A stretch of 39,064 bases of DNA from a virus (taxonomy: Duplodnaviria > Caudoviricetes): positions 1-39,064 of the IMG/VR virus record IMGVR_UViG_3300023174_000339. The stretch is one strand, 5' to 3'. The position numbers were made by a program, and so were the translations under genes. The notes under the pieces are model-generated. The model was not told the origin of the DNA. It ran no database searches and saw only the letters and a program-made list of their open reading frames with translations. Of this stretch, positions 122 to 39,064 are shown piece by piece; within the stretch, counting starts at the first letter, position 1; each line of letters begins with the position of its first letter.

Positions 122-1108
122 TTAGATATAAGTACCAGAAGCCTTTGCATTTTGTAGTACCCACTTAATAGGAGCAAAACCGCCAGAAGCACCAGCATCT
201 GTGGTATTACCAAGTCCGTCAAGTTCAATTTTGATTTTTACAAAATCATCTCCACGGTCATAAGCGGCGGCAGTATAAGCACCCTTTGTAATGGTTGCTT
301 GAATTTGAATTGCGGCAGCACCTGTTCCATAAGCCCAGTTAAGAACAATGGCAGGTTGTGTGTTTGTTAGGTAGCGTGTTAATTCTGTATCCGCTTCCAT
401 AATAAACTCAATATCACCTGTAACATCAAGAGCACCAACAAATACGCTAAATGGATTTTGTGTTTGTGAGATACCGTAAATTGGCGTAACTGGTCGCTTC
501 AATGAGATTGAACCATTCATACCATTTGTGATTGATGATCCACCGATAGATACAGTTCCTTGCCAAACTGGTGTTGGCAATACTGTGCTAAATGATGGTG
601 ATGGTGCAGTAGTTGTTGCTGAAATAAAACCTGTGGACTTTGCATCAAATTCCAATATTCCATCTGAACTAAACTTTAGTGTTACATCGTGGAATTGTTG
701 TGCGGCGTATGTACGCGTACCAGCAACATAAAAGTCTGTAAGTGTGTAAGAAAGTGGTTGAACATCAGCAGATGCCGCAAGACTGTTCCTTAGCGAAATT
801 GTGTGTGTGAATGGAGCAGATGCGCCAACTGTTGCGCAAGCACCCATAATACCTGTTAATGCGTAACCGATACCATCAGCAAATACCGCACCACCTAAAT
901 CAAATGTAGAGCGTGTGCGACCCGGAATATAGTTGTAATTTTCAACCATAGCACCGCGAAGCCCTTTATCAAATAATGGGTCAATTACATCTACTGGCTT
1001 TACAGTATCTTTATTGACAAGAAGGTAATCTGTCGGTGCAACGGCAGTACCTTTTGTTACTTCTTTTGCAATTCCTATATAGGAACGGACGGAATTTTGG
1101 ACTGCCAT
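122..1108 (-). CDS. Major tail (tube) protein, allele 1
   Basis: 328 aa, beta-rich Thr/Gly/Ala protein starting SYIGIAKEVTKGT. Sits between head-tail genes and the tail assembly chaperone. Confidence 0.8.
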   Translation of the reverse strand: MAVQNSVRSYIGIAKEVTKGTAVAPTDYLLVNKDTVKPVDVIDPLFDKGLRGAMVENYNYIPGRTRSTFDLGGAVFADGIGYALTGIMGACATVGASAPFTHTISLRNSLAASADVQPLSYTLTDFYVAGTRTYAAQQFHDVTLKFSSDGILEFDAKSTGFISATTTAPSPSFSTVLPTPVWQGTVSIGGSSITNGMNGSISLKRPVTPIYGISQTQNPFSVFVGALDVTGDIEFIMEADTELTRYLTNTQPAIVLNWAYGTGAAAIQIQATITKGAYTAAAYDRGDDFVKIKIELDGLGNTTDAGASGGFAPIKWVLQNAKASGTYI

Positions 1109-1285
1109 TTACTCACTCTCCTGCGGTGTTGTGAAGGTTGGTTTGGTTGAAATCTTAGCACTAACACTAATAACTTCATACGCATTAAAATCATCTGGGG
1201 CATCAAATTCTGCATTTGGCGCCACAACAATCCCAAGCGAAGGGAACACACGCTCGTCTGTTCCCGTGTATTTATACTTTGCCAT
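1109..1285 (-). CDS. Small hypothetical virion-region protein (58 aa, MAKYKYTGTDERVFPSLG...)
   Basis: Not in the ORF track. Translated by hand; has an AAGGAG RBS and fills the gap between flanking genes exactly. Confidence 0.75.
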   Translation of the reverse strand: MAKYKYTGTDERVFPSLGIVVAPNAEFDAPDDFNAYEVISVSAKISTKPTFTTPQESE

Positions 1286-22950: not shown

Positions 22951-22977
22951 TTTTTATCCCTTTGCTATTTGCTGATG

Positions 22978-23064
22978 AGGCTCATCAGTAGTGCCATTTA
23001 GCACTAGACACGGTAAAATGCGTGCGGATTAAAAATCTGCCTACTTTTTTACCGTGTTTCGCCT
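22978..23064 (-). ncRNA. Type II hammerhead ribozyme (HH1)
   Basis: - strand: AGGC-GAAA-CACGGTAAAA[28-nt loop]TTTTACCGTG-TC^-TAGTGC[TAAATG]GCACTA-CTGATGA-GCCT. Complete core and all three stems; predicted cut between 23007 and 23006. Confidence 0.9.
23025..23046 (-). promoter_or_regulatory. 22-bp repeated motif, copy 2 (in the HH1 stem III loop)
   Basis: + strand CGGATTAAAAATCTGCCTACTT. Confidence 0.8.
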
Positions 23065-24895: not shown

Positions 24896-25072
24896 TTATG
24901 CAATTTTTTTGCCTGTATATGTGGTCATATACTTGCTTTTTGTAACTGTGTATTCAATTACTCGGACTTTGTGTTTGTGCTTACCGAGTAAATCTTTTGC
25001 TTCTTTTGCGGTTTTCTTATCTGCGGTTTTCCAACCACAGTTGCAGAAAGCCTTATATACTTTTTTGTCCAT
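24896..25072 (-). CDS. Small basic protein (58 aa) with CxC...HxH
   Basis: Hand-translated MDKKVYKAFCNCGW...KHKH; AAGGGAG RBS; first ORF after HH2. Confidence 0.75.
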   Translation of the reverse strand: MDKKVYKAFCNCGWKTADKKTAKEAKDLLGKHKHKVRVIEYTVTKSKYMTTYTGKKIA

Positions 25073-25095
25073 TTTGTATCTCCCTTTTTATGTGA

Positions 25096-25170
25096 TAGGC
25101 GTACCATCATCAGTAACCGTTGCCTAAGCGGTTAGACGGCGCTTACTTTTAGTGCAAGCGCCGTTTCGGA
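25096..25170 (-). ncRNA. Type II hammerhead ribozyme (HH2) with loop I pseudoknot
   Basis: - strand: CC-GAAA-CGGCGCTTGC[ACTAAAA]GTAAGCGCCG-TC^-TAACCG[CTTAGGCAA]CGGTTA-CTGATGA-T-GG, then GCCTA, which is complementary to loop I TAGGC. Predicted cut between 25135 and 25134. Stem II is minimal. Confidence 0.82.
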
Positions 25171-25740
25171 AATTGTTTGTCCCTAGTTATTTGAATTGTG
25201 CAAATACCAAGATCATTGAGTTGAACTTGATACCGCTATCGGTGTGCCAAACCGACCTCTGAGATAAATTCTCCATGCCGACTTCCGCCTTATTTGGAGT
25301 GCGCTGATTAGCAACTACTGTGGGTGCCTTTGTCTGCCACTTTCTAGGACTTACCCGTTGCGTGCGTTCCCTTATTTGCGTGTCATAACTTTTTGCAATG
25401 TGTTATATCTACTAATTGCGTACCTTGTAGAATACCGAAAGTCTGCCTAATTAGTGTTAGTGTGATTAACAGCGACTAACAGATTGTGCTGGCTATAATT
25501 CGGACTTGCAATTTGTTACTGGATACTCTGAACGGTGCAAATTAAATAACGAAATTTGCGTTCCGTTTATATCTCCTATGTATCAATATCTACTTATTTT
25601 CCTCGCCAGAGCGGTGCGGTGCGTAAGCGTTAATCCGATGCCTTCACCGAGGTTTTTGTAGATATTTAGTTGTAAATGTTCTAGTAGGTAAATTACTTGG
25701 GTTGTATTCGTACGAATGGACGACCCGTTAATAAACTACC
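25135..25740 (-). ncRNA. Candidate large (~600 nt) structured non-coding RNA
   Basis: No credible ORF. Many helices (AATATCTAC/GTAGATATT, CCTCG/CGAGG, AACGG..GCAAATT/AATTTGC..CCGTT, GTTAGT/ACTAAC, ACTAATT/AATTAGT, TCGGT/ACCGA). Bounded by a candidate promoter and HH2. Confidence 0.55.
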
Positions 25741-25745
25741 CTTCA

Positions 25746-25754
25746 ATGGTATCA
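25746..25754 (-). promoter_or_regulatory. Candidate extended -10 (TGaTACCAT) for the leftward early transcript
   Basis: Fits TGnTAnnnT just upstream of the first hairpin of the structured region. Confidence 0.45.
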
Positions 25755-25890
25755 CCCCACGCCGAGATGGGTTTCAGAGGGTGTTTTTAACCTCGTTACA
25801 GCCCCGTATAGACACGCATATGTACAAGTGGTACATCTATATGCAATTGCTATTCAAATGTCCGCAAATAGCCTTACACGCCTTGTGGAA

Positions 25891-25913
25891 AAGTAGGCAG
25901 TTTTTTAATGCCG
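25891..25913 (+). promoter_or_regulatory. Repeated motif, copy 5 (inverted, 1-nt insertion)
   Basis: AAGTAGGCAGTTTTTTAATGCCG, oriented with the rightward ORF. Confidence 0.65.
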
Positions 25914-25968
25914 ACACATTATTTGTAACACTTGCATACTCAATCACAAGTGGGCATACACTTCGGTT

Positions 25969-26199
25969 ATGGCACAAACTGGTAAATCAAGTTATTCGCA
26001 AATCACAATCCGTTGTGGCGGTTTAGTTGTTGAATTAGGAACTGAAACCGAATACCCAGACATGGTTGATGATTTAACTAACCGTGCGCTAAATGTATTC
26101 AAAGAAGCGTGCCAAACAGTAAAAGACAATGGCGTGGATATATCAAATATGCGCCTAATCACCGCAGATTATGGTGATGATTATGATGATGAAGAGTAA
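25969..26199 (+). CDS. Acidic hypothetical protein (76 aa), probably leaderless
   Basis: No RBS; TACACT (-10) ends 6 nt before the ATG; lies in a gap free of - strand genes. Confidence 0.75.
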   Translation: MAQTGKSSYSQITIRCGGLVVELGTETEYPDMVDDLTNRALNVFKEACQTVKDNGVDISNMRLITADYGDDYDDEE

Positions 26200-26303
26200 T
26201 GTGCCGAATTTGCGGAGATTGCGCTAAGGAACATACACGCACTATTGACGATGCCGTTGATGAAGCGGAAACTAATCTAACCAAATTTTGTATTCCGCAG
26301 TAA
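26199..26303 (+). CDS. Microprotein (34 aa) MCRICGDCAKEH...
   Basis: TAATG coupling to the upstream gene; CxxCxxCxxxH. Confidence 0.5.
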   Translation: MCRICGDCAKEHTRTIDDAVDEAETNLTKFCIPQ

Positions 26304-27306
26304 CTCTGCCTTTAACTGGGTCAATAAAATGCAGGCGTTGGCTTGGAATAGCGCTAGCAGCTAATAAATCGCGTGCATACCGATTATCACTCTCAGTTGA
26401 ACCTGTTTGGTAAATACTTCCTAATCCGTTTGCCATTGGCCAACAAGCGTGTGTGTGATAATGCCCCACATATACATCTCTAAATTCCCAAGGATACGCA
26501 CCGCTACGCCAACGGTTTGCATGTTGAACAATGGCAGTAGGTGATGCAAACCCATTTCTGCCTACTTCATCACCGTGTATTAACAATGCGCGGTAATTAC
26601 CGATTTCAACTCTTTGTACATCATCTGGACAGTCCTGCCAAGTTAAACGCTTCTCATCTGCAAGTAACTGGCGCGCTAATTCATAACACATACGGTCAAT
26701 ATTATCGTTGCGTGGTACATCTGCGCGTTTGTTACCGATACGCCCGTGATTACCCCACTCTGCAACCACTAATACATTTTCGTACATTGTTAATGCTTTT
26801 CTAATAACATCGGTAATAAGTCTTGATACCGTTACATATTGTTCAAATAAAGTGGCATCAACTTCGTGTAACTGTGCTGGATAGTTAAATAAACCTTCAA
26901 CCATATCGCCGCCAAATAACACAACTACATCTTTTACAGGGTGGTCTGCTCTTTGTATTTCTGTAATTTTGTAGGCTTTATCTACAAAGTCCATAACGCG
27001 TTTGCGCATTACTTCTGAATTATATGTAGTGGTTTTTTTACTGCCTTGCCAGTCAGTCATATGCCATAGTGCAACTTCACTAGATTTTTTGCGTTTATCT
27101 GGTACTGGTATCTGTACAGATTTAATTGCACCCATAGCAAGAGTTGCATCTTTGGTTGCTTGTATTGTTACTTCAACTAATTCTTCTGTACGGTTCTTTG
27201 CATCTTTGAGTTGTTTTTGAGTGCGTATTAACGCCTTGCGCAATTCCGTTATATCACTTGATTCAATATCTTCTGGTAACTCTTCAAATCGGTCTTTAAG
27301 ACTCAC
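26272..27306 (-). CDS. Calcineurin-like metallophosphoesterase with N-terminal coiled coil
   Basis: TDWQ, GGDMVEG, GNHGR, IHGD and VGHYH. Confidence 0.88.
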   Translation of the reverse strand: MSLKDRFEELPEDIESSDITELRKALIRTQKQLKDAKNRTEELVEVTIQATKDATLAMGAIKSVQIPVPDKRKKSSEVALWHMTDWQGSKKTTTYNSEVMRKRVMDFVDKAYKITEIQRADHPVKDVVVLFGGDMVEGLFNYPAQLHEVDATLFEQYVTVSRLITDVIRKALTMYENVLVVAEWGNHGRIGNKRADVPRNDNIDRMCYELARQLLADEKRLTWQDCPDDVQRVEIGNYRALLIHGDEVGRNGFASPTAIVQHANRWRSGAYPWEFRDVYVGHYHTHACWPMANGLGSIYQTGSTESDNRYARDLLAASAIPSQRLHFIDPVKGRVTAEYKIWLD

Positions 27307-38015: not shown

Positions 38016-39002
38016 TTAGATATAAGTACCAGAAGCCTTTGCATTTTGTAGTACCCACTTAATAGGAGCAAAACCGCCAGAAGCACCTGCATCTGTGGTA
38101 TTTCCTAGTCCGTTAATTGAGACGGTAATTTTTACAAAATCATCTCCACGGTCATAAGCGGCGGCAGTATAAGCACCCTTTGTAAGAGTTGCTTGAATTT
38201 GAAGTGCGGCTGCACCTGTTCCATATTGCCAGTTAAGAACAATCGCAGGTTGTGTGTTTGTTAGGTAGCGTGTTAATTCTGTATCCGCTTCCATAATAAA
38301 CTCAATATCACCTGTAACATCAAGAGCACCAACAAATACGCTAAATGGGTCTTGTGTCTGTGAAATGCCGTAAATTGGTGTAACTGGACGCTTCATTGAA
38401 ATTGAACCCGTCATACCATTTGTGATTGAAGTTCCACCGATAGATACAGTTCCTTGCCAGACTGGTGTTGGCAATACTGTGCTAAATGTTGGTGTTGGTG
38501 CAGTTGTTGTAGCAGACTTAAAACCTGTTGCTTTAGCATCAAATTCCAACATACCATCTGCGCTAAACTTTAGCGTTACATCGTGAAATTGTTGCGCGGC
38601 ATATGTGCGCACACCAGCAACATAAAAGTCTGTAAGTGTGTAAGAAAGTGGTTGAACATCAGTAGATGCCGCAAGACTATTCTTTAATGAGATTGTGTGT
38701 GTAAATGGAGCAGATGCACCAGTTGTAGCACAAGCACCCATAATACCTGTAAGTGCATAACCAATACCATCAGCAAATACCGCACCACCCATATCAAATG
38801 TAGAGCGTGTTCTGCCCGGAATATAGTTGTAATTTTCAACCATAGCACCGCGAAGTCCTTGATCGTACAATGGGTCAATTACATCTACTGGCTTTACAGT
38901 ATCTTTATTGACGAGAAGGTAATCTGTCGGTGCAACCGCAGTACCTTTTGTTACTTCTTTTGCAATTCCTATATAGGAACGGACGGAATTTTGGACTGCC
39001 AT
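38016..39002 (-). CDS. Major tail (tube) protein, allele 2
   Basis: 328 aa; about 25 amino acid differences from 122-1108 by manual count. Confidence 0.8.
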   Translation of the reverse strand: MAVQNSVRSYIGIAKEVTKGTAVAPTDYLLVNKDTVKPVDVIDPLYDQGLRGAMVENYNYIPGRTRSTFDMGGAVFADGIGYALTGIMGACATTGASAPFTHTISLKNSLAASTDVQPLSYTLTDFYVAGVRTYAAQQFHDVTLKFSADGMLEFDAKATGFKSATTTAPTPTFSTVLPTPVWQGTVSIGGTSITNGMTGSISMKRPVTPIYGISQTQDPFSVFVGALDVTGDIEFIMEADTELTRYLTNTQPAIVLNWQYGTGAAALQIQATLTKGAYTAAAYDRGDDFVKITVSINGLGNTTDAGASGGFAPIKWVLQNAKASGTYI

Positions 39003-39064
39003 TTACTCACTCTCCTGCGGTGTTGTGAAGGTTGGTTTGGTTGAAATCTTAGCACTAACACTAA

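What the first reader, a model, noticed from the sequence alone, without database searches (positions are those of the whole stretch)
25135..25754. ~600-nt ORF-free, helix-dense region between a promoter and a ribozyme: candidate large phage ncRNA
Seen: the only long non-coding stretch in a densely packed genome, with at least eight local helices on the - strand, a possible long-range GTCCTAG/CTAGGGAC pairing, a TGnTACCAT element upstream and HH2 defining a precise 3' end. Established: phages carry large structured RNAs of this size class (ROOL, GOLLD). I cannot assign it to either family by eye. Inference: a known-class or new large ncRNA matured by a ribozyme.
Basis: partly seen in the sequence, partly recalled or inferred. 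Interest (0 to 1): 0.8.

Follow-up and report, generated by a model that had tools for sequence, protein, structure and literature searches.

The report
Large ribozyme-tailed phage noncoding RNA
A group of lake phages carries a roughly 600-base non-coding stretch whose base pairing, including a long-range knot, is conserved by matching mutations, and which matches no catalogued RNA family; it is predicted to be cut free by a self-cleaving ribozyme at its end and likely acts on its own as a folded decoy or scaffold early in infection.

Summary
The feature is real, but single-sequence folding does not show it: without the hammerhead arm the folding z-score is -0.3. The evidence is comparative. 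I found 49 distinct homologues in freshwater-type phage contigs. A structure fixed on the window sequence shows changes on both sides at 59 of 89 pairs in a structure-blind alignment of 44 of them (shuffled mean 43, 0/500). On a tree, 52 branch-level compensatory changes sit in register against 0-8 when partners are slid. The RNA has a ~315-nt multi-junction core closed by long-range helices, an E-loop-like motif, a covarying pseudoknot to the 3' tail and swappable 5' domains. One relative holds a 76-aa ORF in a peripheral arm. An extended -10 element lies upstream in 30 of 30 close relatives; a type II hammerhead follows in 28 of 29 gene-anchored carriers (the 29th contig ends inside it). Rfam gives no hit for the body (GOLLD, ROOL, introns), and no tRNAs are nearby. 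Verdict: a new large ornate phage RNA family; discrete transcript and function untested.

The parts
25746..25754 (-). Extended -10 promoter-like element (TGn-TAnnnT); start of transcription inferred at about 25739
   Evidence: match in 30 of 30 close relatives, middle triplet variable; function inferred
25135..25739 (-). Predicted released RNA, about 605 nt (about 440-760 nt in relatives, estimated)
25684..25739 (-). Domain D1, variable 5' hairpin domain; the window has a short variant, most relatives a longer branched one
25585..25666 (-). Domain D2, interrupted hairpin with a K-turn-like internal loop (motif name recalled, read by eye); replaced in some relatives, absent in the L021 group; preceded by an A-rich linker that recurs before domains
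25261..25575 (-). Conserved core closed by long-range helix P1 (25575-25570 with 25266-25261) and P3 (25523-25520 with 25275-25272), with an E-loop-like motif (25527-25524 with 25271-25269)
   Evidence: P1 5 of 6 pairs and P3 3 of 4 pairs change on both sides; partner-swap test
25531..25567 (-). P2 arm; its loop (25550-25544) is the 5' half of pseudoknot PK1; holds a 76-aa ORF in relative L361
25386..25518 (-). Branched domain P4-P9
   Evidence: 88-100% paired for P4-P7 and P9, both-side changes in each
25279..25385 (-). Rod P10-P13 with a symmetric A-rich internal loop and a conserved terminal loop near 25340-25335; an extra hairpin domain is inserted here in L003
25203..25255 (-). 3' hairpins P14 and P15, present only in the group closest to the window
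25186..25192 (-). 3' half of pseudoknot PK1
   Evidence: 89% paired, 4 of 7 pairs change on both sides; own partner -5.2 vs other partners -2.3 kcal/mol
25096..25170 (-). Type II hammerhead ribozyme (HH2), predicted cut after 25135, extra U after the core heptamer, loop I/3' tail pseudoknot 25126-25122 with 25100-25096
   Evidence: orthologues pass Rfam RF02276; activity untested
24896..25085 (-). Ribosome-binding site and first early ORF (58 aa); this slot holds unrelated genes in relatives
   Evidence: 47 first ORFs fall into 15 clusters
22975..23063 (-). Second type II hammerhead (HH1), predicted cut after 23007, again just before a ribosome-binding site
25969..26199 (+). Conserved divergent 76-aa ORF sharing the intergenic region; also present in relatives without the RNA
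   Evidence: no PHROG or Pfam match

Best explanation
The region encodes a large RNA with a conserved, pseudoknotted multi-junction fold that is likely the first thing transcribed from the phage early promoter, is predicted to be cut from the early mRNA by the type II hammerhead at its 3' end, and likely works in trans as a folded decoy or scaffold for host RNA-binding proteins. Shown: conservation, compensatory pairing, the pseudoknot at the level of covariation, fixed coupling to a hammerhead, an exchangeable downstream gene, patchy presence among relatives. Inferred: the start at about 25739, self-cleavage after 25135 leaving a 2',3'-cyclic phosphate on the RNA and a 5'-OH on the mRNA (established hammerhead chemistry), and stability from the tail being locked into the core. 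Hypothesis only: E-loop-, T-loop- and K-turn-like surfaces mimic rRNA or tRNA and soak up host defence nucleases or translation factors, possibly as oligomers like GOLLD and ROOL. My odds: real structured RNA 0.93; discrete trans-acting species 0.7; decoy or scaffold role given that, about 0.6.
For: Covariation on a structure-blind alignment of 44 of 49 homologues: 86.6% cells paired vs 73.5 shuffled, 59 of 89 pairs changed on both sides vs 43.1, score 0.301 vs at most 0.067 when slid. 52 compensatory branch events vs 0-8 slid. Partner-swap tests for P1 and PK1, 0 of 10000 permutations, not phylogeny-corrected. L361 lacks both halves of PK1 and holds an ORF looped out by a long stem. A model of the rod built from 13 rows finds members left out of it (L361, L251, L334, L030) and none of 20 other loci. 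The first gene after the hammerhead falls into 15 unrelated clusters, which argues against a gene-specific switch. Of 61 informative relatives, 29 carry the RNA, 9 a hammerhead with a short leader, 23 neither: an accessory module. Contigs of a relative cover 25308-25726 in one freshwater RNA library. Tandem hammerheads in prophage transcripts were shown to cleave (PMC3088659, passages).
Against: No single-sequence folding signal without the hammerhead arm. An all-pairs covariation test on the 30 closest sequences gave only 2 pairs at E<0.05, one of them in the hammerhead. 44 branch events break pairs; the count of further pair types does not exceed shuffles (106 vs 110); P8's outer pairs, P12b and P2b are only 51-75% paired over all clades. 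The G-U versus A-C strand test is inconclusive (52 vs 55 cells). The RNA-library contigs cannot show strand, ends or level and may be DNA; the same run also covers coding parts. Nothing here tests protein binding or oligomers.
Confidence: 0.5

Rival explanations
1. A giant cis-acting leader: the folded RNA senses a ligand or protein and controls hammerhead cleavage, and so the stability or translation of the early operon.
For: Always directly upstream of the hammerhead; PK1 ends 17 nt before hammerhead stem II; it is part of the primary early transcript.
Against: Downstream gene is unrelated across 15 clusters; 9 relatives keep the hammerhead with only a short leader and 23 have neither; L361 lacks the PK1 tail but keeps core and hammerhead; no riboswitch hit.
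Confidence: 0.2
2. A catalytic RNA or selfish element related in kind to self-splicing introns or HEARO-type RNAs, using the hammerhead to define its end.
For: An ORF is tolerated in a peripheral arm, as in introns (recalled); modular gain and loss of domains; invariant unpaired residues in the core.
Against: No Rfam intron or ribozyme hit for the body; always at the late/early junction, one copy per window; only one pseudoknot found; the inserted ORF has no significant PHROG match.
Confidence: 0.12
3. A purely structural RNA that self-assembles into cages for storage or packaging with no specific host target (GOLLD/ROOL-like nanocage).
For: Conserved 3' core plus variable 5' domains mirrors the organisation described for GOLLD (bioRxiv 10.1101/2024.12.08.627333, parts 1-2 read); PK1 could be intermolecular, as some ROOL and GOLLD pseudoknots proved to be; A-rich loops are conserved.
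Against: No second covarying kissing contact was found; no tRNA array nearby; not exclusive with the decoy reading.
Confidence: 0.12
4. A DNA element (origin, packaging or single-stranded DNA fold) rather than an RNA.
For: The G-U/A-C test does not pick a strand; the plus strand folds as well as the minus strand.
Against: Sits exactly between a conserved promoter-like element and an RNA enzyme motif on one strand; non-nested covarying pseudoknot over 360 nt; dispensable in 32 of 61 relatives; far from the terminase and replication-initiator genes.
Confidence: 0.05

Closest known systems
GOLLD RNA (Rfam RF02032)
   Same: Large, multi-junction phage RNA from lakes with a conserved 3' region and a variable 5' region (bioRxiv 10.1101/2024.12.08.627333).
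   Different: No model match at E<=10 in the window or in 5 relatives' genomes; shorter (about 440-760 vs over 800 nt); no tRNAs nearby; ends in a hammerhead.
ROOL RNA (Rfam RF03087)
   Same: Similar size (mean 581 nt), phage-borne, few invariant nucleotides (PMC5737381, passages).
   Different: No match; one pseudoknot found vs three; not near tRNAs; hammerhead-coupled.
Type II hammerhead ribozymes flanking prophage genes (RF02276; PMC3088659)
   Same: Open stem II, loop I/3' tail pseudoknot, tandem copies around changing genes.
   Different: Here the upstream product is itself a large conserved structured RNA; the window's group has an extra U after the core heptamer.
HEARO RNA and self-splicing introns with ORFs in loops
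   Same: An ORF looped out of a peripheral helix (L361); comparison recalled, HEARO described.
   Different: No Rfam hit; the ORF is in 1 of 49 homologues and has no nuclease match.

Membership tests
GOLLD | Match to covariance model RF02032 | tested here: not met
   0 matches at E<=10 in window and 5 relatives; none in cmscan
GOLLD | Conserved 3' region with variable 5' region | tested here: met
   (organisation only, no sequence likeness)
GOLLD | Usually beside tRNA genes | tested here: not met
   0 tRNAs in the window and in 16 of 16 loci scanned
GOLLD | Homo-oligomeric nanocage | not testable with these tools
   needs cryo-EM or mass photometry
ROOL | Match to covariance model RF03087 | tested here: not met
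   no hit in cmscan; one search also negative, but its controls did not ring, so it adds little
ROOL | [quoted passage not shown] | tested here: inconclusive
   several junctions and one covarying pseudoknot found; further ones not excluded
Type II hammerhead (RF02276) | Catalytic core with stems I and III closed and stem II open | tested here: met
   orthologues 38-44 bits vs cut-off 37; window copy itself not called, with one extra U
Type II hammerhead (RF02276) | Loop I / 3' tail pseudoknot | tested here: met
   5 Watson-Crick pairs in the window; alternative matching pairs seen in relatives
Type II hammerhead (RF02276) | Self-cleavage | not testable with these tools
   needs in vitro transcription
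Group I / group II introns, riboswitches, other Rfam 15 families | Match to any of 4227 models | tested here: not met
   only weak chance hits below cut-off

The most novel reading that the evidence does not exclude
A new class of large ornate phage RNA that makes its own 3' end with a built-in ribozyme, is the first product of infection in phages of freshwater Actinomycetota, and acts as an RNA-only anti-defence or host-takeover decoy built from exchangeable domains, possibly assembling into cages through the pseudoknot contact.
Probability: 0.35. Interest if true: 0.9.

Novelty: new variant of a known kind. Interest (0 to 1): 0.74.

Why it matters
Only a handful of bacterial or phage RNAs of this size and complexity are described (GOLLD, ROOL, OLE), and their functions are poorly understood. 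This family adds a distinct fold. Its ends are predicted by a promoter and a ribozyme, so one in vitro transcript should give the native molecule for probing and cryo-EM. Natural variants with and without each domain, without the pseudoknot, or without the RNA at all supply ready-made controls. It would also give phage hammerheads a concrete job: releasing a non-coding RNA from an mRNA.

Tried and rejected
Rfam at gathering and at E<=10 on the window, and E<=5 on 8 relatives: nothing for the body. blastn against 50,697 GenBank phages: no match. A 14-base pattern scan gave mostly chance loci (only L132 and L197 matched). A pattern for the L021-type rod gave 10 loci, of which L379 and L381 are chance coding matches. 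Seven genome-collection loci of the neighbouring exonuclease lack the core (three also by model). The short leaders of the L037 group share a short motif by eye but match neither the HMM nor the model. Short likenesses to RNase P, group I and tRNA T-arm motifs (recalled) were dropped: wrong order and no Rfam hit. G-U/A-C strand asymmetry: inconclusive. Single-sequence folding energy: not significant without the hammerhead arm. Absence of RNA contigs over other parts of the window in run X1 says nothing. Three look-ups in earlier findings returned nothing. Literature: seven full-text searches listed no paper describing this RNA. PMC10690425 predicted 8495 motifs of 29-151 nt from IMG/VR (passages); its alignment and diagram files were too large to read, so fragments of this RNA may be among them. 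Subscription papers, including the original GOLLD paper and reviews of large bacterial RNAs, were not searched.

Full report
Setting. The window is a tailed-phage genome with nearly all genes on the minus strand: tail, portal, terminase, recombination and lysis genes match PHROGs. The finding lies at the junction between the lysis/late block and a run of small early genes. The neighbouring exonuclease (26272-27306) has 589 relatives among scanned viral stretches, of which 80 were kept. In the genome collection its three best matches lie on contigs labelled Actinomycetota, Rhodoluna and Nanopelagicales (70-75% identity), so a freshwater actinobacterial host is inferred, not shown.

Observation. 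The gap 25073-25968 is the longest non-coding stretch. An extended -10-type element sits at 25754-25746 and is matched in 30 of 30 close relatives with a variable middle triplet. A type II hammerhead spans 25170-25096 and a second one 23063-22975. Rfam does not call the window copies but does call orthologues above the cut-off. From the single sequence, helix density is not above chance once the hammerhead arm is removed (z -0.28); with it, both strands score about -2.2 to -2.5.

Homologues. Gene-anchored loci, hammerhead patterns and a hammerhead-independent core pattern gave 49 distinct cores. The 30 closest average 77% identity, minimum 60%; two shorter or diverged groups and several single outliers extend this. 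Among the 80 gene-anchored loci, 19 end too early to tell, 29 carry the core, 9 carry a hammerhead behind a short leader and 23 carry neither. Of the 29, 28 have the hammerhead; L039 ends inside it. The first gene after the hammerhead falls into 15 unrelated clusters among 47 ORFs. No match was found in GenBank phages.

Structure. I fixed helices on the window by coordinate after reading folds and alignments, so the structure is not independent of these sequences. It was counted on a structure-blind alignment of 44 of the 49 cores (four near-duplicates and the ORF-bearing L361 left out). Of 89 pairs, 59 change on both sides (shuffled 43.1, 0 of 500), 86.6% of cells pair (73.5 shuffled, 31-40 slid), and the covariation score is 0.301 against at most 0.067 slid. 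The count of further pair types does not beat shuffles (106 vs 110). On a tree, 14 well-aligned helices show 52 compensatory branch events and 44 breaks, against 0-8 compensatory events when slid. The 5' domains also covary in 13 rows (9 of 23 pairs, 1 of 500). A stricter all-pairs test on the 30 closest rows had little power: 2 pairs at E<0.05.

Anatomy. Two variable 5' domains (D1, D2), often preceded by an A-rich linker, lead to a core closed by P1 (25575-25570 with 25266-25261). Inside are the P2 arm, an E-loop-like motif, P3, and a junction carrying a branched P4-P9 domain and a rod P10-P13 with a symmetric A-rich loop. The P2 loop pairs with the 3' tail (25550-25544 with 25192-25186), a pseudoknot spanning 360 nt. 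Each sequence pairs better with its own partner than with others' (P1 -7.1 vs -4.8, PK1 -5.2 vs -2.3 kcal/mol; 0 of 10000 permutations, not corrected for kinship). The E-loop residues are invariant in 44 of 44, but my extraction required them; they are also invariant in the 30 rows aligned without that anchor. Motif names (E-loop, K-turn, T-loop) are recalled and assigned by eye. L361 carries a 76-aa ORF with its own ribosome-binding site looped out of P2 and lacks the tail, so both halves of PK1 are gone together. L003 has an extra hairpin domain in the rod, and an RNA-library contig runs off into unlike sequence at the same place. A model of the rod finds L361, L251, L334 and L030, none used to build it, and none of 20 other loci.

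It is 76.5% paired over all rows and beats shuffles on cells and score but not on pairs changed (196 of 500). Its both-side changes come from the diverged groups, where these columns do not align; in the 29 alignable rows there are none. The same nucleotides fit local stem P13, itself nearly invariant. The pair is unsupported but not excluded.

Expression. One freshwater metatranscriptome, kept as contigs, holds two contigs of a relative over 25308-25726, along with contigs over coding parts. This shows presence in an RNA library only; strand, ends and level are not shown.

Mechanism. I read the locus as promoter, large RNA, hammerhead, ribosome-binding site, exchangeable early gene. Cleavage would free a ~605-nt RNA with its tail knotted into the core, and leave the mRNA with a 5'-OH; hammerheads flanking changing prophage genes are known and were shown to cleave (PMC3088659, passages). 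Independence from the downstream gene and patchy presence favour a trans-acting accessory RNA. A decoy or scaffold for host RNA-binding proteins is my best guess and is untested. Cis control of cleavage, catalysis, a pure cage and a DNA element are the rivals.

Comparison and novelty. It is organised like GOLLD and sized like ROOL (bioRxiv 10.1101/2024.12.08.627333, parts 1-2; PMC5737381, passages; PMC12990946 and PMC9569102, passages) but matches neither model and has no tRNA neighbours. Seven literature searches listed no description; short fragments could be among the unread alignments of PMC10690425. I rate it a new family within the known kind of large ornate phage RNAs, set apart by its fixed coupling to a ribozyme.

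Noticed in passing
window 122-1170 and 38016-39064: The two ends share 92% identity over 1049 nt, each holding a 328-aa ORF: an imperfect assembly overlap of a circular genome or a real duplication.
   Followed up: partly
window 25134-23007 (-): The piece between the two hammerheads (about 2.1 kb, several small genes) would have a 5'-OH and a cyclic phosphate and so could be circularised by a host ligase; some relatives have three hammerheads (L051, L053).
   Followed up: no
L037:7530-7760, L051:5720-5970: A sister group has a different hammerhead behind a conserved short leader of about 130 nt that shares a short motif with the rod's 5' strand; no significant model match.
   Followed up: partly
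L361:729-959 (-): A 76-aa ORF of unknown function inserted inside the RNA's P2 arm, no significant PHROG match.
   Followed up: partly
L251:900-1300 (-): A diverged member sits directly behind an endolysin-like and a holin-like ORF (named by eye) rather than the exonuclease and small divergent gene.
   Followed up: partly
window 25969-26199 (+): A conserved acidic-tailed 76-aa protein, the only clear plus-strand gene, divergent from the early promoter in most relatives; no family match.
   Followed up: partly
window 25186-25172 (-): The tail just before the hammerhead resembles this phage's ribosome-binding site and spacer but has no start codon; perhaps a relic of how the hammerhead was gained.
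   Followed up: no
window 25717-25706 (-), L002, L334: The tip of D1 is a perfect 12-nt palindrome with changed arms in these relatives, a possible dimerisation site.
   Followed up: no
window 25935-25800: Short inverted pentamer motifs recur in the divergent promoter region, also in relatives lacking the RNA; possible regulator sites.
   Followed up: no
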